Shown piece by piece: positions 645 through 18,054 of a stretch of DNA of 59,250 bases. Location: positions 1-59,250 of the forward strand of contig JAZSLQ010000089.1 in NCBI GenBank assembly GCA_045535455.1. The letters are read 5' to 3'. The notes under the pieces are model-generated. The model saw nothing but the letters and a program-made list of their open reading frames with translations. It made no database searches and was not told the DNA's origin. Each line of letters begins with the position of its first letter. The first letter of the stretch is position 1. This DNA comes from Kiritimatiellia bacterium. GTDB taxonomy: Bacteria; Verrucomicrobiota; Kiritimatiellia; RFP12; UBA1067. Position numbers and translations under genes: made by a program.

Positions 645-1226
645 GTGTTCAAGATTGGCGAATATTTTAAGGGAAATGACTTTCTGCGCGTTGCGGACGC
701 AGAAAAGATGGGGATTTCCCGTGCTGTGTTGTCACAGATGGCGAAGAGCGGGGAGTTGCAGCGTGTTGCGCATGGCGTGTACGCCAGGACAGATGCGGTG
801 CCGGACGAACTTGCGCTGATCGGCATGCGGTCGGACAATATCGTCTTTTCCCACGAAACCGCGCTGAATCTGCTTGGACTTTCCAATCGGATTCCGGCAA
901 TGCCGTCCATCACGATTCCTTATGGCGGATCGGTTCCGCACAGCATCGCGAGCGCGGTAAACGCCTACAGGATAAGGCCGGAGTTGCACGATCTAGGCAG
1001 AGGGACGGAAGAGACGTTCATGGGGAACGAGGTGGCTTGCTACGACCGCGAACGGACGATTTGCGACATAATCCGCTCGTACTCGCGCATGGATGTGGAG
1101 ACGTATGCGAACGCGATAAGGAACTATGCAGGGAGCAGGGAGAAAAATATTCCGCAATTGGTCTCATACGCGCAGGCTATGGGCATCGAGCGCAAGGTCC
1201 TCAAGGTCATGGAGGTGCTTGTGTGA
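645..1226 (+). CDS. Type IV toxin-antitoxin antitoxin, AbiEi family
   Basis: N-terminal wHTH-like 'GISRAVLSQMAKSGELQRVAHGVY', plus 'FSHETAL' and 'YDRERTICD' motifs. GAGG upstream of the GTG start; coupled to an AbiEii gene. Confidence 0.85.
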   Translation: MFKIGEYFKGNDFLRVADAEKMGISRAVLSQMAKSGELQRVAHGVYARTDAVPDELALIGMRSDNIVFSHETALNLLGLSNRIPAMPSITIPYGGSVPHSIASAVNAYRIRPELHDLGRGTEETFMGNEVACYDRERTICDIIRSYSRMDVETYANAIRNYAGSREKNIPQLVSYAQAMGIERKVLKVMEVLV

Positions 1227-2074
1227 GCGGCGATACGGCCAGGTCGATGAGTGTCAGGGCAAGAATCAACAATCTTGCGAAGGAACTGGGTATTGCGCCG
1301 CAGCATGCGCTCCAAAGGTACTTCACGGAAAGATTTCTCGCGAGAATCGCCGCGTCGCCGTACGCGAACAATCTCGCCATAAAGGGCGGTACGCTGATGA
1401 GCGCGATTCTCGGCGTTGCCCACCGCACGACAATGGATATCGACGCCACGATCATTGGCATGAAGGCGGATGAGGCGACGATTGAAAGAGTGGTAGCCGA
1501 AATCGCGGCGATTGAGGTTGGCGACGGTATTGTGTTCAAGGTAAAGCCGGTAGGTGCGGACACAATCCGCAAAGACGATGATTACGGCGGATACACAGTT
1601 GGGCTAGTGGCGTCCGTCGGCACGATACGGTTGCCGATTGCGATTGACGTGACGTTCGGGGACAAGATCACGCCAAGGGCCAGGAAAAGGAAGTTCACGC
1701 AGATTCTGGACGGAAGTTCGCATATTACAGTTTTGGCGTATACGGTCGAGACGGTTGTTGCGGAGAAGCTGCAAACCATTTTGTCGAGGGGCGCGGCGAA
1801 TACGAGGCTGCGCGATTTCTACGACTTGCACATGCTGTGGGCACGGCGCGAGTTCAAGGCGGAGATTCTTGCCAAGGCCATAAGGAATACGTTTGCAAAC
1901 CGGCACTCGGAAGAGTATTGGTCAAATCGTTTGCAAATCGTTGAATCCTTGAAAGTGTCGCAGCCGCTGGCGGAGCAATGGCAACGGTATTGCCGTAAGG
2001 CTCCATTTGCCAAAGACATAACGTATTTGCAGGTGGTAGAATCGATCAAAAACCTGATTGATGCGGCACAATAA
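1223..2074 (+). CDS. Nucleotidyltransferase toxin, AbiEii/AbiGii family
   Basis: 'KGGTLM', 'RTTMDID' and 'RLRDFYDL' motifs. GTG start overlaps the antitoxin stop (GTGA) with GGAGG at 1211-1215; the track start of 1037 is probably too far upstream. Confidence 0.85.
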   Translation: MSGDTARSMSVRARINNLAKELGIAPQHALQRYFTERFLARIAASPYANNLAIKGGTLMSAILGVAHRTTMDIDATIIGMKADEATIERVVAEIAAIEVGDGIVFKVKPVGADTIRKDDDYGGYTVGLVASVGTIRLPIAIDVTFGDKITPRARKRKFTQILDGSSHITVLAYTVETVVAEKLQTILSRGAANTRLRDFYDLHMLWARREFKAEILAKAIRNTFANRHSEEYWSNRLQIVESLKVSQPLAEQWQRYCRKAPFAKDITYLQVVESIKNLIDAAQ

Positions 2075-2318: not shown

Positions 2319-2407
2319 CTTGCGGCTCATTTTCCCTTTAAAATATCCAATCTGCGGCTCACAATGAGCCGCAGATTTGGTATAATAGAATCGTTTTGAG
2401 CCGCAAG
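2319..2407. promoter_or_regulatory. Four-site symmetric operator-like array and extended -10 promoter of Fic gene 1
   Basis: TGAGCCGCA inverted at 2321-2329 and 2353-2361, direct at 2365-2373 and 2397-2405. TGGTATAAT at 2378-2386. Confidence 0.75.
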
Positions 2408-2417
2408 GAGTGTTGAT

Positions 2418-3458
2418 ATGCAGTTGATCGATGAGATTCTTGAGTATCTTCAGTACCATCCGATGTCCAGCCGTCAGGATGTCGAAGGACATCTTTCTAG
2501 CAAAGTCAGTTCGGCAACGGTGAAACGTCAGATTGCCAGAGGCATTGAAGACGGACTCGTCGTCTCGCACGGCAACAATCGATCAACCGTCTATGCCATA
2601 ACACCGAAGGCCCATATCCTTCGGACCGTCAACCTCGACTCCTACTATGCCATAGACATCGACAAAAGAGATGTCCAGACTGGCTACAACTTCGATTTGA
2701 TTCGCACGGAACTGCCGAAGATCGACATCTTCTCCGCTGACGAAAAGGCGCGGTTGGACGAGTGCCAGAAACTCTTCACGTCGCACATGATGGAAATGGT
2801 GCCGGGATCAGTTGCGTACAACCGGGAACTCGAGCGTCTCGGAATCGATCTGAGCTGGAAGTCATCGCAGATAGAAGGAAACACCTATACCTTGATCGAG
2901 ACGGAGACGCTGCTCAAGGACCTCAAGGAAGCGAAGGGGCGTACACACGCGGAAGCCCAGATGCTCCTGAACCACAAATCCGCTCTGAAGGCCATCATTG
3001 CAAATCCCGGTTATTTCGAGAGGCTTTCGCTTGCGCGGATTGAGGACATACATTCCGTCCTGGTCGAAGACATGGGCGTTGAACCGTCGTTGCGCCATCG
3101 TCGCGTAAGGATCACTGGCACGAAGTATCAGCCGCTCGATGTAGAATCGCAGATACGGGAAGCTGTCGATGACATGTGCGCGCTGATCAACGGCAAGGCC
3201 GATCCGTATGAAAAGGCGCTGCTGGCTTTGCTTCTCATTTCCTACATCCAGCCGTTCGAGGATGGCAACAAGCGGACGAGCCGCCTTGTGTCGAATGCCC
3301 TGCTGCTCGCTTACGGACATTGTCCGCTCACGTTCCGCTCGGTTGACGCGAACGACTACCGCGCGGCGCTTCTGCTTTTTTACGAGCAGAACAACCTCTC
3401 GGCGTTCAAACGCATTTTCGTCGAACAGGCGGAATTCGCCGTTCACGAGTATTTCTGA
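2418..3458 (+). CDS. Fic family protein with N-terminal wHTH (paralog 1)
   Basis: Fic motif variant 'IQPFEDGNKRTSR', 'SSQIEGNT' segment, wHTH-like first ~65 aa, AAGGAG RBS. Confidence 0.9.
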   Translation: MQLIDEILEYLQYHPMSSRQDVEGHLSSKVSSATVKRQIARGIEDGLVVSHGNNRSTVYAITPKAHILRTVNLDSYYAIDIDKRDVQTGYNFDLIRTELPKIDIFSADEKARLDECQKLFTSHMMEMVPGSVAYNRELERLGIDLSWKSSQIEGNTYTLIETETLLKDLKEAKGRTHAEAQMLLNHKSALKAIIANPGYFERLSLARIEDIHSVLVEDMGVEPSLRHRRVRITGTKYQPLDVESQIREAVDDMCALINGKADPYEKALLALLLISYIQPFEDGNKRTSRLVSNALLLAYGHCPLTFRSVDANDYRAALLLFYEQNNLSAFKRIFVEQAEFAVHEYF

Positions 3459-6376: not shown

Positions 6377-6408
6377 AATCCTGTTAATCCTGTAAATCCT
6401 GTCTAAAA
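6377..6408. repeat. 9-mer repeat arm (AATCCTGTN x3 + TAAAA)
   Basis: aatcctgtt aatcctgta aatcctgtc taaaa; the same family occurs at 11964, 12670-12753 and 15435-15590. Confidence 0.85.
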
Positions 6409-11963: not shown

Positions 11964-11996
11964 TTTCTAGACAGGATTTACAAGATTTACAGGATT
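11964..11996. repeat. 9-mer repeat arm, opposite orientation to the arm at 6377
   Basis: tttctagacaggatttacaagatttacaggatt. Confidence 0.85.
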
Positions 11997-12013: not shown

Positions 12014-12685
12014 ATGAATAGAAAGAAGATTGTTAAGTTTGCGGCTTGGGGAATTGTGGCCGCACTTGTCGCGTGGGGCGTGTCGGCGATTGCCGTCTAT
12101 TGGGTGTCGGCTGGGCGCGTGTTCGACAAGGCATCTGATGTTCCGCACTGCCGCGCCGCCGTTGTGTTGGGTTGTCGCAAGTCCCTGCCGAATGGACTCT
12201 TGAACCTTTATTTCACGCGGCGCATCGCCGCTGCCGCCGATCTTTACAAGGCGGGCAAGGTGGATTGCCTCATTGTCAGCGGCGACAACCATATCAAGGA
12301 GTATGACGAGGCGTCGGACATGAAGGAATCTCTTGCCGAGGCGGGCGTTCCTGCGGATCGCGTCGTCTGCGACTATGCGGGATTTCGCACGCTTGATTCT
12401 GTAGTGCGGGCGAAGAAGGTGTTTGGGCTTGATTCGTTCATTGTCGTTTCGCAGAAGGATCATGTTCGCCGCGCGGTCTTCACGGCGCGTGGCTTCGGCT
12501 GCAACGCATACGGCTATGCCGCGCCAGATGTCAACGGACGCTATTCAATCAAGACTACAATTAGGGAGCAACTTGCCAAGATCGCGGCGGTTCTCGATGT
12601 GATTCTTCGCCGTGGTCCTAAGTTCCTCGGCCCCCGAGAACTTCTGCCGGATGGTTCTCAGGGGAATGTTTTTAGACAGGATTAA
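12014..12685 (+). CDS. sanA: SanA/YdcF family protein (DUF218)
   Basis: N-terminal TM helix; 'LIVSGDN', 'DYAGFRTLDS' and 'IVVSQKDHVRRA' motifs; TAGGAG RBS. The stop codon lies within the repeat arm. Confidence 0.85.
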   Translation: MNRKKIVKFAAWGIVAALVAWGVSAIAVYWVSAGRVFDKASDVPHCRAAVVLGCRKSLPNGLLNLYFTRRIAAAADLYKAGKVDCLIVSGDNHIKEYDEASDMKESLAEAGVPADRVVCDYAGFRTLDSVVRAKKVFGLDSFIVVSQKDHVRRAVFTARGFGCNAYGYAAPDVNGRYSIKTTIREQLAKIAAVLDVILRRGPKFLGPRELLPDGSQGNVFRQD

Positions 12686-12753
12686 CAGGATTGACAGGAT
12701 TGTGGGGATGAATGGATGTCTTAATCTTGTAAATCCTGTAAATCCTGTCTAAA
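12670..12753. repeat. Complete palindromic 9-mer-arm element
   Basis: Left arm ttttagacaggattaacaggattgacaggatt (12670-12701); right arm aatcttgtaaatcctgtaaatcctgtctaaa (12723-12753). Confidence 0.85.
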
Positions 12754-12817: not shown

Positions 12818-12905
12818 AATCGGTCGTAAAGATGGCGGATTTTGGGCAAAATCGGTCGGCATGGCGACCGATTTTGTGGTATAATATGTGACGGACCGAC
12901 CGATT
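12818..12905. promoter_or_regulatory. Four-site symmetric operator-like array and extended -10 promoter of Fic gene 2
   Basis: AATCGGTCG at 12818-12826 and 12850-12858; CGACCGATT at 12865-12873 and 12897-12905; TGGTATAAT at 12877-12885. Confidence 0.75.
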
Positions 12906-12916
12906 AGAGTAAAAGT

Positions 12917-13951
12917 ATGACGAATCTTGATAAGGTGATTGAGTATTTGCACTATCATCCGGGCGCAAGTCGCCGCGAATTGATGGAGGCACTGGTTCTG
13001 GGAATCAAGGACACCCAGATGAAAGTGCTTTTGGGTGATGGTATAGCCAACGGCGACATCCGCGTTGAGGGCAAGGCGCGGGCGACACGCTATTTCATAA
13101 CGCCCAAGGCGCAGCTCTTGAGGACGATTGATCTTGGATCGTATTATGCTGTCGAGACCGACAAGCGTGAGATGCAGACCTCGTATAATTTCGAGTTGAT
13201 CCGTGACGTGTTGCCGAAGGTGGAGATATTCACGAAGGACGAGTGCAAGTTCCTTGTCGACCGGGAGAATGCATTTTTGGCGCGCATGAAGGACTATCCG
13301 AAAGAACTCTATGCGAAGGAGATGGAACGGCTTGGTATCGACCTCAGCTGGAAGTCGTCGGAGATCGAGGGCAACACCTATACGCTGTTGGAAACGGTTA
13401 ATCTCCTGAAGGACAAGATCGAAGCCGAGGGCAAGAAACGCGAAGAGGCGATAATGCTCTTGAACCACAAGGCGGCGCTTAAGGCCATTGTCGAGCATAG
13501 TGCGTATTTCAGAGATCTTTCGCTTGCGCGGATGGAGGACGTGCATTCGGTGCTGATCGAGGAACTTGGCGTCGAACGCAACCTGCGCCACATAAGGGTT
13601 GGCATTTCGGGGACGAGGTATCGTCCGCTTGAAGTTGAGTCTCAGATACGCGAGGCAGTGGAGGACATGTGTGCCCTCGTGAACGGCAAGAGCGACCCTT
13701 ACGAAAAGGCGCTCTTGACGCTGTTGCTTATCGCCTACATTCAGCCGTTCACGGACGGCAACAAGCGTACGAGCCGTCTGATGGCGAATGCGGTGTTGAT
13801 TTCGCGTTCGCTTTGCCCTCTGTCATTCCGCACGGTAGAGGCAAATGACTATCGGGCGGCATTGCTCCTGTTCTACGAGCAGAACAATCTCTCGGCGTTC
13901 AAGAAGATGTTCCTTGAGCAGGTTGAGTTCGCGATGAAGGAATACTTCTGA
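12917..13951 (+). CDS. Fic family protein with N-terminal wHTH (paralog 2)
   Basis: 'IQPFTDGNKRTSR'; collinear and visibly similar to 2418-3458 from about residue 60 onward. Confidence 0.9.
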   Translation: MTNLDKVIEYLHYHPGASRRELMEALVLGIKDTQMKVLLGDGIANGDIRVEGKARATRYFITPKAQLLRTIDLGSYYAVETDKREMQTSYNFELIRDVLPKVEIFTKDECKFLVDRENAFLARMKDYPKELYAKEMERLGIDLSWKSSEIEGNTYTLLETVNLLKDKIEAEGKKREEAIMLLNHKAALKAIVEHSAYFRDLSLARMEDVHSVLIEELGVERNLRHIRVGISGTRYRPLEVESQIREAVEDMCALVNGKSDPYEKALLTLLLIAYIQPFTDGNKRTSRLMANAVLISRSLCPLSFRTVEANDYRAALLLFYEQNNLSAFKKMFLEQVEFAMKEYF

Positions 13952-13968
13952 ACATGGAGGAATTTGAT

Positions 13969-15450
13969 ATGCCTGTTGATTGCGGATGGCTTGAGTCGTT
14001 TACGAAGCTCGTCGATGTAGTGTGCGGGTGGGTATGGGGATTGCCCCTCGTCGGTGCGATTCTTGTCACTGGGCTTGTCCTTACGCTGTGCCTGCGCTTC
14101 ACTCATATCTTCAACTTGAAGCGTGCCTTCGTCTACATGTTCCACACCGAGGAGGGCGACGAAGTGTCGGGCGAGGTGAGTTCTTTCGCCGCGCTTTGCA
14201 CTGCGCTTTCCGCGACGATCGGCACCGGCAACATCGTTGGCGTCGCGACGGCCATTGGCACAGGCGGCCCCGGCGCGCTCTTCTGGATGGAAGTCGCGGC
14301 GTTCCTCGGCATGGCGACGAAGTATGCCGAAGGACTGCTTGCTGTGAAATACCGCGAGGTGACGCCTGACGGTCGCGTGCTTGGCGGCCCGTTCTACTAT
14401 ATTGAAAAGGGCCTTGGGCATCGGTGGAAGCCGCTTGCCGTGGCGTTCGCAGTCTTTGGCGTGCTTGCAGGCGTCATGGGTATCGGCACCATCACGCAGA
14501 TCCACGGCATAACGTCTGCCGTGCAGCGGTTCTTAGACCCGCAGTTCAACCCCGCGGACATGGCGACTGGCATCGGGCTTTTCGGCACGACTTATTCCGT
14601 GCCGGTGGTGGTTGCAGGCATCGTGGTGACGCTCTGCGTGGGGCTCGTCGTCATCGGCGGCATCAAACGCATCGCCAAGGTGTCGTCCGTCGTCGTGCCT
14701 TTCATGGCGATTTTCTACATAGCCGTCATCGTGCTTTTGCTTCTCGGCAATCTCACGAAGGTGACGGCGGCGATCCAGACGATCGTGCTTGCCGCCTTTA
14801 ATCCGGAGGCAGTCACTGGCGGCGTCGTGGGAACAGTGTTTATCGCGATTCAGAAGGGTGTCGCGCGAGGTATCTTCTCGAATGAGGCGGGCCTTGGCTC
14901 CGCGCCGATTGCCGCCGCCGCCGCGAGGACGAACGAACCGGCGCGACAGGGACTCGTATGCATGACCGGTACCTTCATCGACACAATCGTCATCTGCACG
15001 ATGACTGGTCTTGCGATCGTTGTGACAGGCGCATGGGAGCCGTCGCTCGGGCTCGAGGGCGTCGACATCACGATAGAGGCGTTCAACCGCGGACTTGCCT
15101 TCATCGGCCCCCATTCAGGCATAATCTCGTCATTCTTCCTAATGACTGCGCTTACCTTCTTCGCGTTCACCACGATCCTCGGCTGGAACTACTATTCCGA
15201 GAAGTGCTTGGAGTATCTCGTCGGCACGGAGCGGCAGTGGTGCGTAAAGGCGTTCCGCGTCTTATATGTCGCTGTCGTATTTGTTGGACCATATCTAACC
15301 GTGTCGGTGGTGTGGGGCATGGCGGACGTGTTCAATGGCCTGATGGCTTTCCCGAACCTCATAGCTCTCTTGCTCCTCTCGCCTGTCGTCGCTCGCACGA
15401 CGGCGGACTTCTTCCGCCGCACGAGACAAGAAAGTTTTAGACAGGATTAA
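13969..15450 (+). CDS. Sodium:alanine/glycine symporter family (AGCS) transporter
   Basis: 'TIGTGNIVGVA', 'GGPGALFWM', 'GGPFYYI' and 'RGIFSNEAGLGSAPIA' motifs. GGAGG at 13956-13960 favours ATG 13969 over 13954. Confidence 0.92.
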   Translation: MPVDCGWLESFTKLVDVVCGWVWGLPLVGAILVTGLVLTLCLRFTHIFNLKRAFVYMFHTEEGDEVSGEVSSFAALCTALSATIGTGNIVGVATAIGTGGPGALFWMEVAAFLGMATKYAEGLLAVKYREVTPDGRVLGGPFYYIEKGLGHRWKPLAVAFAVFGVLAGVMGIGTITQIHGITSAVQRFLDPQFNPADMATGIGLFGTTYSVPVVVAGIVVTLCVGLVVIGGIKRIAKVSSVVVPFMAIFYIAVIVLLLLGNLTKVTAAIQTIVLAAFNPEAVTGGVVGTVFIAIQKGVARGIFSNEAGLGSAPIAAAAARTNEPARQGLVCMTGTFIDTIVICTMTGLAIVVTGAWEPSLGLEGVDITIEAFNRGLAFIGPHSGIISSFFLMTALTFFAFTTILGWNYYSEKCLEYLVGTERQWCVKAFRVLYVAVVFVGPYLTVSVVWGMADVFNGLMAFPNLIALLLLSPVVARTTADFFRRTRQESFRQD

Positions 15451-15590
15451 CAAGATTGACGGGATTATGAGAATTCGAGTTGAGAGTTGGAGTTCGAGAA
15501 AGGAAGTCGGAATAATTCCACCCTCCAACTCCAACTATTTTCTCCAACTATCTCTCTTAATCTTGTAAATCCTGTTAATCCTGTCTAAAA
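15435..15590. repeat. Nested palindromic element: outer 9-mer arms, inner GAGTTG/CAACTC arms
   Basis: Outer arms 15435-15466 and 15559-15590; inner arms about 15477-15498 and 15523-15556. Confidence 0.85.
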
Positions 15591-17015: not shown

Positions 17016-17093
17016 TTGTAACAACTTCTCCATTGCATTGACGCAGAAAAGTTGTTACAATACTGTCGATATGGGCAGAAAAGTTGTTACAAT
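17016..17093. promoter_or_regulatory. Promoter and repeated operator-like sites of Fic gene 3
   Basis: TTGCAT (17033-17038), 17 nt, TACAAT (17056-17061). 19-bp direct repeat gcagaaaagttgttacaat at 17043 and 17075; inverted core ttgtaacaact at 17016-17026. Confidence 0.65.
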
Positions 17094-18054
17094 CGGTGGT
17101 AAGCCGTTTCATTCCAAGCTTGCGCCATACGAAAGCGAAGTGAAAGAGCTTAAGGCTTCCAGTGCAAGCGTTAGGGCGATTGCGGCTGAGATGTTTGCGC
17201 GGCATGGCATCCAAGTGTCGCACAATGCCGTCGCGTCGTTTTTGCGGACGCATGGTACCAAGCGTCGCAACTTTCTTGACGGAATCGGCGAGGCGAGGCG
17301 AACGGAACTGCTAAAGGCGATTAGGGCGCTTTGGACGCACGACTCTACGGCGATCGAGGGCAATACACTCTCGCTCGGCGATACGATGGCGGTGCTGGAG
17401 TATGGCTTGACGGTGAAGGGGAAGCCGCTCAAGGACCATCAGGATATTGTCGCCCACGCGAACGGCGTTGATTTTGTGCGTTCGCTTCTTGACAAGGGGC
17501 GTATTGCCGAAGCGGATGTCTTGGAGTTGCATCGCATCGTCGTGCCGAATGAAACGCGAGACATATACAAGCCCATTGGAGCGTGGAAGCGCGAGGACAA
17601 TGGCACTTATGGCGCCGAGGGTGGCAGAAGCGTCTACATGCCCTACGCCTCTGCCGATGAAACGCCGAAACTGATGCGCGGCTGGATAAAGGCGTTCAAC
17701 TTGTTGTTTGACGGCATCAAGGGCGCAGACGCTGCGCTTGAGGCGTATTTGTTCGCCCATGTCTCGTTTGTGCGAATCCATCCGTTCTTTGACGGCAACG
17801 GCAGGCTTGCGCGGCTTCTTGCAAATCTGCCGGTTCTCTACGCGGGCTTCCCGCCGATTGTAGTTCCGTCCGAGGCGCGGCTTGAGTACATCCGCGAACT
17901 TTGGGATTACCAGCGCGCGGTGGGCGTAATCAGTCTCGCAAGAAAAGAGCTGCTGCCCGAACCGACACGACTCGACAATCTGCGCCGCCTCATTCGCAAT
18001 TGGTGGCAGACAACTCTCGACCTCGTTGCCGAGGCAAAGGGGAGTTCAAAATGA
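17071..18054 (+). CDS. Fic family protein (canonical motif) with a putative N-terminal HTH
   Basis: 'HPFFDGNGRLAR' and 'STAIEGNTL' motifs; helix-turn-helix-like 'SVRAIAAEMFARHGIQVSHNAVASFLR'. ATG 17071 preferred over TTG 17038. Confidence 0.9.
   Translation: MGRKVVTIGGKPFHSKLAPYESEVKELKASSASVRAIAAEMFARHGIQVSHNAVASFLRTHGTKRRNFLDGIGEARRTELLKAIRALWTHDSTAIEGNTLSLGDTMAVLEYGLTVKGKPLKDHQDIVAHANGVDFVRSLLDKGRIAEADVLELHRIVVPNETRDIYKPIGAWKREDNGTYGAEGGRSVYMPYASADETPKLMRGWIKAFNLLFDGIKGADAALEAYLFAHVSFVRIHPFFDGNGRLARLLANLPVLYAGFPPIVVPSEARLEYIRELWDYQRAVGVISLARKELLPEPTRLDNLRRLIRNWWQTTLDLVAEAKGSSK

What the first reader, a model, noticed from the sequence alone, without database searches (positions are those of the whole stretch)
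12818..12905. Same four-site, 32-bp geometry upstream of HTH-Fic paralog 2, but with a different sequence
Sequence: AATCGGTCG at 12818 and 12850, CGACCGATT at 12865 and 12897, symmetric about 12861.5. The inner palindrome has 12-bp arms (12847-12858 / 12865-12876) and again ends flush against TGGTATAAT. The geometry is conserved while the 9-mer is completely changed. Inference: operator and recognition helix co-evolved to give orthogonal specificities, as in phage immunity groups, which would allow paralogs to coexist. This could be an undescribed family of diversifying regulator-operator pairs.
Basis: partly seen in the sequence, partly recalled or inferred. Interest (0 to 1): 0.85.

Follow-up and report, generated by a model that had tools for sequence, protein, structure and literature searches.

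The report
Self-repressing Fic gene's four-site operator
Four phased copies of a 9-10 bp site cover the promoter of a stand-alone gene for a DNA-binding Fic protein that lacks the catalytic histidine. Across hundreds of gut-bacterial relatives the site sequence changes together with the protein's DNA-reading helix, so this is a self-repressing cassette whose DNA specificity has diversified.

Summary
AATCGGTCG occurs exactly four times in the window, at 12818 and 12850 (+) and 12865 and 12897 (-). The sites are symmetric about 12861.5, spaced 32/15/32 bp start to start, and wrap TGGTATAAT, 31 nt before the ATG of a 344-aa protein.

That protein has an N-terminal winged helix and a class II Fic domain whose catalytic His is Gln (QPFTDGNKRTSR).

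The family is large: at least 583 loci in reference genomes and 604 clusters at 50% identity. Nearly every member carries 3-4 upstream half-sites in ++-- order, spaced in whole helical turns (10-11, 20-22 or 31-33 bp).

Within the window's own clade, only the four sites, the -10 box and the ATG are invariant.

The variable bases of the half-site track recognition-helix residues 31-37. This rule also held in 6 of 6 evaluable distant homologs, with predictions written down before the DNA was read. In one lineage the operator plus helix was swapped by recombination.

The most likely function is tight negative autoregulation. The "orthogonal paralogs" idea is only partly supported. The CGG core is kept in register, co-resident copies are rare, and two of three other co-resident pairs share one specificity.

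Fic proteins with a winged helix that repress their own gene are already known (CccR, SoFic), so this is a new variant of a known kind.

The parts
12818..12826 (+). Outer-left half-site F1 (AATCGGTCG; extended gAATCGGTCGt)
   Evidence: invariant columns in the clade alignment A4
12850..12859 (+). Inner-left half-site F2 (AATCGGTCGG); overlaps the -35-like hexamer
12864..12873 (-). Inner-right half-site R1 (gCGACCGATT on the + strand); ends 3 nt before TGGTATAAT
12896..12905 (-). Outer-right half-site R2 (CCGACCGATT on the + strand); starts 11 nt after the -10 hexamer ends, so it lies at or just after the likely transcription start and before the weak SD
12856..12885 (+). Promoter: -35-like TCGGCA (12856-12861), 18-nt spacer, extended -10 TGgTATAAT (12877-12885)
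   Evidence: 10 of 12 matches, TG present; TATAAT invariant in 15 clade members
12917..13951 (+). Gene for the 344-aa wHTH-Fic(Gln) protein (paralog 2)
12917..13114 (+). N-terminal winged helix-turn-helix (res 1-66: H1 3-13, H2 19-26, H3 32-44, wing 48-61)
   Evidence: AF2 model, pLDDT 91; weak MarR/regulator PHROG hits; HTH_DeoR 'faint' in a distant homolog
13007..13048 (+). Recognition helix region KDTQMKVLLGDGIA (res 31-44); residues 31-37 covary with the operator
13355..13375 (+). Class II inhibitory motif SSEIEGN (S147, E151, G152 and N153 invariant in 81 homologs)
13742..13777 (+). Fic motif QPFTDGNKRTSR: Gln276 in place of the catalytic His, Lys283 in place of Gly
2321..2405 (.). Equivalent four-site operator of paralog 1 (TGCGGCTCA x2, TGAGCCGCA x2) with TGGTATAAT
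2418..3458 (+). Paralog 1 gene (346 aa; 60% identical overall; 36% in res 1-66 and 66% in res 70-344)

Best explanation
The four sites are the operator through which the downstream gene's own product represses its promoter.

The protein carries an N-terminal DeoR/MarR-like winged helix. Each copy of this domain reads one roughly 10-bp half-site of the frame A-A-T-C-G-G-N-N-N-A. Two half-sites point rightward and two point leftward. All four lie on one face of the DNA, spaced in whole helical turns, and together they cover about -75 to +13, including the -35 region and the start site. Bound protein should therefore exclude RNA polymerase.

Specificity is set mainly by residues 31-37 at the start of the recognition helix. 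The window's paralog 2 clade (K-D-T-Q-x-K-V/A) reads AATCGG-TCGG. Paralog 1 (S-S-A-T-V-K-R) reads yTGCGG-CTCA. Both derive from the family consensus AATCGGCTCA.

Gene plus operator form a self-contained cassette of about 1.15 kb that is patchily distributed among gut bacteria. The operator-plus-helix module diversifies both by recombination and by fast amino-acid change.

Shown: the sites, their conservation, the geometry rule, the covariation, the cassette boundaries and one recombination event. Inferred: that the protein binds these sites, that binding represses, the oligomeric state (probably four DNA-binding domains per operator), and the job of the Gln-type Fic domain.
For: 1. Site statistics. 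Four exact copies in 88 bp, and no other cluster of three or more sites in the genome.

2. Family architecture. Of 73 scorable upstream regions, 43 have four sites in ++-- order. Same-orientation spacings are only 21-22 (19 cases) or 31-33 (67 cases). Inner spacings are only 10-11 or 20-21.

3. Footprint. In 15 clade members at 76-100% protein identity, the invariant upstream columns are the four sites, TATAAT and ATG, while the spacers vary freely.

4. Covariation.
- CTC goes with S-x-[AS]-T-x-K-R (48 loci).
- GAC goes with [NG]-[ED]-R-T (14 loci, three lineages).
- GTC goes with S-E-S-[TA] (4 loci).
- CGC-GCC goes with S-D-R-T-L-[MV]-R (3 loci).
- TCGG goes with [KG]-D-T-Q (the window's clade).
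- The three highest mutual-information pairs among 344 residues x 14 bases are residue 33 with base 7, residue 33 with base 8, and residue 31 with base 8.
- Of 202 locus pairs with identical residues 31-37, 200 share the same operator core.

5. Pre-registered predictions on homologs from different 50%-identity clusters. Residue 33 A/S goes with C7 and R goes with G7 in 6 of 6 evaluable cases. Loss of K36 goes with a change at G6 in 3 of 3.

6. Recombinants. L047 and L062 are 96% identical to L049 in res 70-344 but differ in both the helix (33%) and the operator. Third-codon-position identity is 32% in codons 1-45 against 76% in the rest.

7. Structure. The AF2 model gives a canonical wHTH, with the covarying residues at the N-terminus of H3.

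8. Promoter overlap. The sites overlap the -35 region, flank the extended -10 box and cover the start site. In Bacteroidales the last site overlaps the TAnnTTTG box.

9. Precedent. The Fic protein CccR represses its own promoter through widely spaced inverted repeats (PMC9755527).
Against: The phylogenetically independent sign test has too few events. There are four independent pairs on well-supported branches, and the helix motif changed with the operator in three or four of them depending on the pairing and never went the opposite way (median p = 0.125).

Many Bacteroidales loci show only 2-3 clear sites.

One distant homolog (P0080) has only two direct repeats. One (P0048) changed G6 although K36 is kept.

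The oligomeric state and how four domains reach sites 1-3 turns apart are unknown.

Most genomes are MAGs, so copy numbers are uncertain.
Confidence: 0.85

Rival explanations
1. The two paralogs were selected to be orthogonal (no cross-repression) so that two cassettes can coexist in one cell, as with heteroimmune prophages.
For: In this genome the two copies differ at 7 of 10 half-site positions and at 6 of 7 helix residues 31-37. The DNA-binding domain diverges far more than the rest: 36% identity against 66%. Module swapping resembles that of immunity regions.
Against: Co-residence is rare. Only 3 of 80 other carrier genomes hold two copies, and only the window's genome among the 5 carriers found in 49 same-genus genomes searched. 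In two of the three other double carriers (G019, G044) both copies have the same helix type and site type. In the third, one copy has a different promoter. Diversification is therefore not tied to co-residence in the data available.
Confidence: 0.35
2. The sites are bound by the Fic protein but serve mainly as an activity switch for the Fic domain, or as an activator site, rather than as a simple repressor operator. DNA binding changes oligomeric state and enzyme activity in CbFic2.
For: CbFic2 switches between AMPylation and deAMPylation on DNA binding (PMC10628234). The inhibitory-helix region is the most conserved part of the family, with entropy 0.08-0.35 over res 131-160. The Fic motif apart from the His is invariant.
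Against: The site positions over -35, around -10 and at +1 are those of a repressor. The catalytic His is absent in 115 of 117 representatives where the motif could be read, so AMPylation control is unlikely. No other site clusters exist in the genome.
Confidence: 0.08
3. The repeats belong to another system: binding sites of an unrelated regulator, recombination or att sites that move the cassette, or a structural palindrome.
For: Homology between genomes begins just outside the outer-left site, so the sites lie at the cassette edge. The inner pair is a palindrome.
Against: The site sequence tracks the cassette's own recognition helix across lineages, recombinants and distant homologs. No recombinase or other partner gene is conserved nearby. 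An operator-like copy lies after the stop codon in only 4 of 72 loci. The palindrome lies upstream of the -10 box, so it is not transcribed.
Confidence: 0.04

Closest known systems
CccR of Yersinia pseudotuberculosis (class II Fic + HTH autorepressor; PMC9755527; probably PDB 7xux, assigned from its title and release date only)
   Same: A Fic-domain protein that binds inverted repeats over the -35/-10 region of its own promoter and represses it. The repeats are widely spaced (10-bp arms, 26-bp spacer). The gene stands alone. The Fic fold matches the model (TM about 0.5).
   Different: In CccR the DNA-binding domain is C-terminal, the catalytic His is present, and the protein AMPylates FtsZ. 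It has two sites, not four, and it is secreted by a T6SS. No specificity diversification has been described.
SoFic (Shewanella oneidensis) and CbFic2 (Coxiella): class II Fic with a C-terminal wHTH (preprint 10.64898/2026.07.09.737422; PMC10628234)
   Same: A class II inhibitory Glu and a wHTH on the same chain. SoFic binds the 100 bp upstream of its own start codon. The PADLOC SoFic profile matches the Fic part (E = 6e-18).
   Different: The domain order is reversed. Those proteins have the canonical HPFxxGNGR motif, and their enzymatic targets are known (EF-Tu, histone H3). The NCBIfam SoFic equivalog scores 17 bits against a cut-off of 550.
Autoregulated toxin-antitoxin operons (Phd/Doc, FicTA/VbhTA, AbiEi-AbiEii)
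   Same: A DNA-binding domain represses the promoter through repeated or inverted sites. The modules are small and mobile and sit in defence/TA-rich neighbourhoods. AbiE pairs lie next to family members here and in L006 and L077. The GNKR motif resembles Doc.
   Different: This is a single polypeptide with no partner gene. The catalytic His of Doc and Fic toxins is missing, and toxicity is unproven.
Immunity regions of lambdoid phages (repressor plus operators exchanged as a module)
   Same: The recognition helix and several operator copies change together. They are exchanged by recombination between otherwise nearly identical genes.
   Different: This is not a phage: only 1 hit was found among 2.9 million viral contigs, though that scan used narrow patterns derived from the window's two paralogs. 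There is one gene only, no lysis-lysogeny switch, and immunity has not been tested.
DeoR/MarR-type winged-helix repressors
   Same: The H1-H2-H3-wing topology. Distant members carry the motif S-x-x-T-[ILV]-x-R-D-L. Half-sites are spaced one helical turn apart.
   Different: The effector domain is a Fic fold instead of a sugar-phosphate or phenolic-ligand domain. The operator has four phased half-sites.

Membership tests
Fic/Fido superfamily (Pfam PF02661) | Fic fold and profile match | tested here: met
   Pfam Fic E = 1.4e-13, 51.9 bits against a cut-off of 24. Foldseek top hits are FICD, SoFic and BT_2513 with probability 1.00 and TM about 0.6.
Fic/Fido superfamily (Pfam PF02661) | Catalytic motif HxFx(D/E)GN(G/K)R with the general-base His | tested here: not met
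   QPFTDGNKRTSR aligns to FICD HPFIDGNGRTSR. Gln is invariant in 81 of 81 homologs and present in 115 of 117 representatives where the motif could be read. The rest of the motif (F, D, G, N, K, R..R) is kept.
Class II Fic (Engel et al. 2012 classification; from knowledge) | Inhibitory motif (S/T)xxxE(G/N) on a helix N-terminal to the Fic core, on the same chain | tested here: met
   SSEIEGN at res 147-153 aligns with FICD E234. It is invariant across the family.
SoFic/CccR-type Fic-wHTH regulators | wHTH C-terminal to the Fic domain | tested here: not met
   The wHTH is at res 1-66 and the protein ends with the Fic domain.
SoFic/CccR-type Fic-wHTH regulators | Binds and represses its own promoter | not testable with these tools
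   Inferred from site position, conservation and covariation. No EMSA or reporter data exist.
SoFic anti-phage defence system (PADLOC) | Full-length match to the SoFic model | tested here: inconclusive
   PDLC03963 E = 6e-18, but only profile positions 13-265 of 361 are matched. The NCBIfam equivalog is far below its cut-off.
Type II / FicTA toxin-antitoxin operon | Separate adjacent antitoxin gene | tested here: not met
   No conserved neighbour in 81 loci. Homology ends at the stop codon and about 110-130 bp upstream of the ATG.
Winged-helix (DeoR/MarR-like) DNA-binding domain | H1-H2-H3 plus a beta-hairpin wing | tested here: met
   AF2: H 3-13, 19-26, 32-44; strands 48-51 and 58-61; pLDDT 91-96 over res 1-60. 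PHROG MarR regulator E = 9e-4. HTH_DeoR 'faint' in P0048. No Pfam HTH model passes its threshold.
Immunity-type repressor/operator modules | Helix and operators exchanged together between otherwise near-identical backbones | tested here: met
   L049 against L047/L062: nucleotide identity 42-62% from -110 to +100 and 92-100% beyond +190. Synonymous third-position identity is 32% against 76%.
Immunity-type repressor/operator modules | Functional non-cross-reactivity between types | not testable with these tools
   Needs a cross-binding or reporter matrix.

The most novel reading that the evidence does not exclude
The window holds two members of a very large, unstudied superfamily of single-gene, self-repressing cassettes, found from gut Bacteroidales and Kiritimatiellia to proteobacterial plasmids. 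In these, a winged helix is fused to a Fic domain that has universally replaced its catalytic His by Gln while keeping the phosphate-binding loop and the inhibitory Glu. On this reading the Fic domain is not an AMPylase. It would be either a nucleotide-sensing or slow-hydrolysing switch, or an effector with new chemistry. The operator-helix module would be exchanged like a phage immunity region because the cassettes compete or interfere with each other. That would make it a new type of one-gene addiction or defence element.
Probability: 0.3. Interest if true: 0.8.

Novelty: new variant of a known kind. Interest (0 to 1): 0.6.

Why it matters
1. It defines the cis-regulatory logic of a family that is annotated only as "Fic family protein". 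The family has at least 583 loci in reference genomes and 604 clusters at 50% identity. The logic is four phased half-sites, placed the same way relative to promoters of two different types (TATAAT in Kiritimatiellia, TAnnTTTG in Bacteroidales).

2. Nature has already made the specificity variants. The helix-to-base correspondences (residue 33 with base 7, residue 36 with base 6, residue 37 with bases 9-10) give a small recognition code. A few helix swaps would test it, and it could supply orthogonal repressor/operator pairs for gut-bacterial genetics.

3. The invariant His-to-Gln change, with the ATP-binding loop and inhibitory Glu kept, points to a Fic domain with a non-AMPylating role. This bears on the open question of what "degenerate" Fic domains do.

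4. The sharp cassette boundaries and the swapping of operator plus helix show immunity-region-like evolution outside phages.

Tried and rejected
1. A regulon. I searched the whole assembly for further clusters of either paralog's site. I found only the two promoters plus a few chance pairs. One of those, on C248, is a tandem hairpin element.

2. It is present in only 4 of 72 loci, so it is not a family feature.

3. A conserved partner gene. None exists. The most frequent neighbours (AAA_14/DUF4143, AbiE, integrase, HTH_31) each occur in 6 or fewer of 81 loci.

4. A phage origin. Only 1 relative was found in the viral contig collection, though the scan's peptide patterns were narrow.

5. My own idea that every operator keeps one inverted pair 41-43 bp apart, which would suggest a dimer spanning four turns as in CccR. 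It held in all 43 four-site loci of the main set but failed in the distant homolog L145, which has spacings (22, 10, 22).

6. A rule linking residue 35 (V against L/M) to the base before CGG. It is contradicted by L119.

8. P0080 could not be scored in the prediction test, because it has only two direct repeats 22 bp apart.

9. Literature searches for a Fic domain lacking the catalytic His, or for this family, returned nothing specific.

Full report
OBSERVATION. The sequence reads AATCGGTCG at 12818 and 12850, and its complement CGACCGATT at 12865 and 12897. Same-orientation copies are exactly 32 bp apart and the whole set is symmetric about 12861.5. The inner pair is a palindrome with perfect 12-bp arms that ends at 12876, directly before TGGTATAAT (12877-12885). 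These are the only four exact copies in the window. In the 3.43-Mb assembly the 9-mer occurs 27 times against 26 expected, and no other place has three or more sites within 110 bp. A consensus scan finds one strong promoter here: TCGGCA, an 18-nt spacer, then TATAAT preceded by TG. The ATG at 12917 follows 31 nt after the -10 box. The promoter of paralog 1 (ATG at 2418) has the same layout with TGCGGCTCA/TGAGCCGCA.

THE GENE. The ORF 12917-13951 encodes 344 aa with a Pfam Fic domain. An AlphaFold2 model built on 81 homologs is confident (pLDDT 91, pTM 0.90). It shows an N-terminal winged helix (H1 3-13, H2 19-26, H3 32-44, hairpin 48-61) packed on a Fic fold. The best structural matches are the class II Fic enzymes FICD, SoFic and BT_2513. 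The alignment to FICD puts SSEIEGN (147-153) on the inhibitory helix. It puts QPFTDGNKRTSR (276-287) on HPFIDGNGRTSR, so the catalytic His is Gln and the second Gly is Lys. Paralog 1 is 60% identical and has the same motif. A third Fic gene at about 17038-18054 is only 20% identical and has a canonical HPFFDGNGR motif.

A LARGE FAMILY WITH ONE ARCHITECTURE. A scan of one genome per GTDB species found at least 583 relatives. Most are in gut and rumen Bacteroidales, with others in Kiritimatiellia, Lentisphaeria, Firmicutes, Spirochaetota and Opitutales. A profile search of 1.84 billion representatives gave 604 clusters at E ≤ 1e-30. Of the 117 top representatives in which the motif could be read, 115 have Q-x-F-x-D-G-N-K-R, and most full-length ones carry the N-terminal wHTH. 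Public records call these proteins only "Fic family protein".

Reading the 130 bp upstream of 81 family members shows the same picture almost everywhere. There are three or four copies of a half-site of the frame AATCGGNNNA, with consensus AATCGGCTCA. Two point right and two point left, and the last copy lies 19-29 bp before the ATG. In the 43 loci with four clear sites, the spacings are quantised. Same-orientation distances are 31-33 bp (67 cases) or 21-22 bp (19 cases), and never 23-30. Inner distances are 10-11 or 20-21 bp. The commonest pattern is (32, 10, 32); the window's clade has (32, 11, 32). Steps of one helical turn mean that all the half-sites must face the same side of the DNA. 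In Kiritimatiellia the TATAAT box lies between the two right-hand sites. In Bacteroidales the last site overlaps the TAnnTTTG box. The operator has therefore kept its place relative to promoters of two different types.

PHYLOGENETIC FOOTPRINT. Rumen metagenomes supplied many close relatives of paralog 2. In an alignment of 15 upstream regions, from proteins 76-100% identical to the window's, the invariant columns are the four sites, TATAAT and ATG. The spacers between them vary freely. One 70%-identical relative (L109) has rearranged the sites around the promoter but keeps the same site type and helix type.

OPERATOR AND HELIX CHANGE TOGETHER. I grouped 73 loci by the consensus of their own sites.
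- CGG-CTC-A goes with helix residues 31-37 S-x-[AS]-T-x-K-R (48 loci).
- CGG-GAC-A goes with [NG]-[ED]-R-T-x-K-R (14 loci).
- C(G/A)G-GTC-A goes with S-E-S-[TA]-L-K-R (4 loci).
- CGC-GCC-A goes with S-D-R-T-L-[MV]-R (3 loci).
- CGG-ACC-A goes with S-D-T-S-I-K-R (1 locus).
- CGG-TCG-G goes with [KG]-D-T-Q-x-K-[VA] (the window's clade).

Among all 344 residues x 14 bases, the three highest mutual-information pairs are residue 33 with base 7, residue 33 with base 8, and residue 31 with base 8. Background values from shared ancestry are high (0.5-0.7 bits), so I also used a tree built on residues 70-344 only. On that tree the GAC type appears in three separate lineages (L012, L068 and the NERT clade), each with [ED]-R-T. 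The GCC type is nested inside a CTC clade. The window's TCGG clade is nested among TGCGG/TTCGG-CTCA relatives. A test on independent pairs found only four pairs on well-supported branches. The helix motif changed with the operator in three or four of them and never went the opposite way (median p = 0.125). The statistic alone is therefore not significant.

Two further lines fill that gap. First, of 202 locus pairs with identical residues 31-37, 200 have the same operator core. The two exceptions are CGG/CAG calls at a degenerate position.

Second, I wrote down predictions for seven representatives from different 50%-identity clusters before reading their DNA, then fetched their loci and read them.
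- The three A-T helices have CTC sites.
- The three evaluable E-R-T helices have G-first triplets (GAC or GCC).
- The three helices that lost K36 have lost G6.
- One K36-retaining protein also lost G6.
- One locus could not be scored.

Two proteobacterial plasmid homologs at about 30% identity fit as well. Aromatoleum (R-R-T-L-Q-R) has TATCGCGCCA copies, two of them 32 bp apart. Sulfitobacter (S-E-T-T-I-W-R) has AATCGTTTCA repeats. Both have Gln in the Fic motif. The pattern suggests that Arg33 reads G7, Lys36 reads G6 and Arg37 reads the C9-A10 end; this assignment is inference.

A SELF-CONTAINED, MOBILE, MODULAR CASSETTE. Pairwise nucleotide profiles show that similarity between genomes starts 110-130 bp before the ATG, just outside the outer-left site, and stops at the stop codon. 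For example, window paralog 1 against a goat-omasum MAG is 92-100% identical inside and unrelated outside. No neighbouring gene is conserved. The recurrent neighbours are AbiE pairs, AAA_14/DUF4143 ATPases, integrases and small HTH proteins, which suggests variable or defence-rich regions. The gene is patchy. Five of 49 genomes of the window's genus carry it, and none of 32 from other families of the order do.

The DNA-binding part diverges much faster than the rest. Paralog 2 against its nearest non-TCGG relative L008 is 36% identical in res 1-66 and 78% in res 70-344. Paralog 1 against paralog 2 is 36% and 66%.

In one case the cause is clearly recombination. L047 and L062 are 96-97% identical to L049 beyond residue 70. 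From -110 to about +130 nt, nucleotide identity falls to 42-62%. Third-codon-position identity at conserved residues is 32% in codons 1-45 against 76-78% in the rest. The exchanged piece is the operators plus the promoter plus helices H1-H3. In another pair (L014 and L018) the amino-acid divergence of the domain is not matched by extra synonymous divergence, which hints at fast amino-acid change (small n). For the window's own paralogs, synonymous sites are saturated everywhere, so the two routes cannot be told apart.

MECHANISM. The best-supported reading is negative autoregulation. The protein's own winged helices occupy four half-sites from about -75 to +13 and shut the promoter. This rests on three things: site position, conservation, and the fact that the sites follow the cassette's own helix through recombinants and distant relatives. 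That last point excludes a foreign regulator. Helical phasing with permitted 1-, 2- or 3-turn steps suggests four DNA-binding domains held by an oligomer of the Fic domains, with some reach. The stoichiometry is not known.

The role of the Fic domain is open. The general-base His is required in every characterised Fic or Doc enzyme, including the degenerate Campylobacter Fic2 (PMC5651007), so ordinary AMPylation is unlikely. Yet D280, G281, N282, K283, T285, R287 and the inhibitory E151 are invariant. The inhibitory-helix region is the most conserved stretch of the protein. A conserved nucleotide or phosphate pocket that senses a ligand, or a different chemistry, is therefore plausible but unproven.

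DO PARALOGS NEED DIFFERENT SPECIFICITIES? In this genome the two copies differ at 7 of 10 half-site positions, sharing only CGG, and at 6 of 7 helix positions. Low cross-talk is therefore likely. However, only 3 of 80 other carrier genomes have two copies. In G019 and G044 both copies have the same helix and the same site type. In G037 one copy has lost the operator to an unrelated repeat-bearing promoter. These are MAGs, so strain mixtures are possible. Diversification is real; the link to co-residence is not shown.

COMPARISON WITH WHAT IS KNOWN. Fusions of Fic with HTH domains, and the idea that they autoregulate, go back to Kinch et al. 2009 (PMC2686095). CccR is a proven case: a C-terminal HTH, a dimer, 10-bp inverted repeats 26 bp apart over -35/-10, and autorepression (PMC9755527). 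SoFic binds its own upstream 100 bp (preprint 10.64898/2026.07.09.737422). In CbFic2, DNA binding switches enzyme activity (PMC10628234). The present family differs in four ways: domain order, the invariant His-to-Gln change with a Doc-like GNKR, the four-site phased operator, and the documented diversification and swapping of specificity. I found no paper on it. I rate it a new variant of a known kind.

LIMITS. Nothing here is experimental. Site calling was automatic with a few hand exclusions. Many loci have degenerate second or third sites. Copy numbers come from incomplete MAGs; the window's own assembly is 85% complete.

Noticed in passing
window 17016-17093 and ORF 17038/17072-18054: A third, unrelated Fic gene (canonical HPFFDGNGR, 20% identical) has its own repeat set. 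A 19-bp direct repeat GCAGAAAAGTTGTTACAAT lies at 17043 and 17075, again 32 bp apart, with an inverted copy at 17016-17030. These are the only 3 copies of AAGTTGTTACAA in the genome. The second direct copy lies inside the first codons if the ATG at 17072 is the start.
   Followed up: partly
window 6377-6404, 11969-11996, 12674-12750, 15439-15586: A REP-like palindromic element (AGACAGGATTnACAGGATT and its complement) sits at several gene ends: 11 matches against 0.03 expected. Two copies bracket the segment holding Fic paralog 2 and the Na+/alanine symporter, and they supply the last codons of the flanking genes.
   Followed up: partly
window 645-2074: An AbiEi (645-1226) / AbiEii (1037-2074) type IV toxin-antitoxin pair lies directly upstream of Fic paralog 1. 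AbiEii genes also neighbour family members in L006 and L077.
   Followed up: partly
window 13951-13954: The Fic paralog 2 stop codon is followed after 2 nt by the start of a 498-aa Na+/alanine symporter, with no terminator-like site between them. In this genome the symporter may therefore be co-transcribed from the Fic promoter. This arrangement is not conserved in relatives.
   Followed up: no
L086 (G037:C74), upstream of its Fic gene: A second copy in another genome has lost the family operator. It carries three copies of CCATGGAACAA(A/G)nTGTTCCACC-like repeats instead, which suggests promoter replacement or capture by another regulator.
   Followed up: no
L109:276-403: A 70%-identical relative of paralog 2 keeps the AATCGG(A/T)CGG site type but has rearranged the sites. 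One site overlaps a TTGACA -35 box, and a palindrome lies downstream of TATAAT.
   Followed up: no
L142, L143 (Sulfitobacter and Aromatoleum plasmids): Proteobacterial homologs at about 30% identity carry an extra C-terminal extension of about 100 aa. Their motif is Q-x-F-x-D-V-N-K-R (Val for Gly). They still have ATCG...CA-type repeats upstream, including a 32-bp spacing.
   Followed up: partly
L145:230-403: In a distant homolog the last operator site abuts the ATG, and TATAAT ends about 16 nt before it. This implies a leaderless or nearly leaderless mRNA.
   Followed up: no
genome contig C248:6660-6760: Two tandem copies of a 14-bp-stem hairpin begin with AATCGGGCGG, a variant of the paralog-2 half-site. 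This is probably an unrelated intergenic hairpin element.
   Followed up: partly
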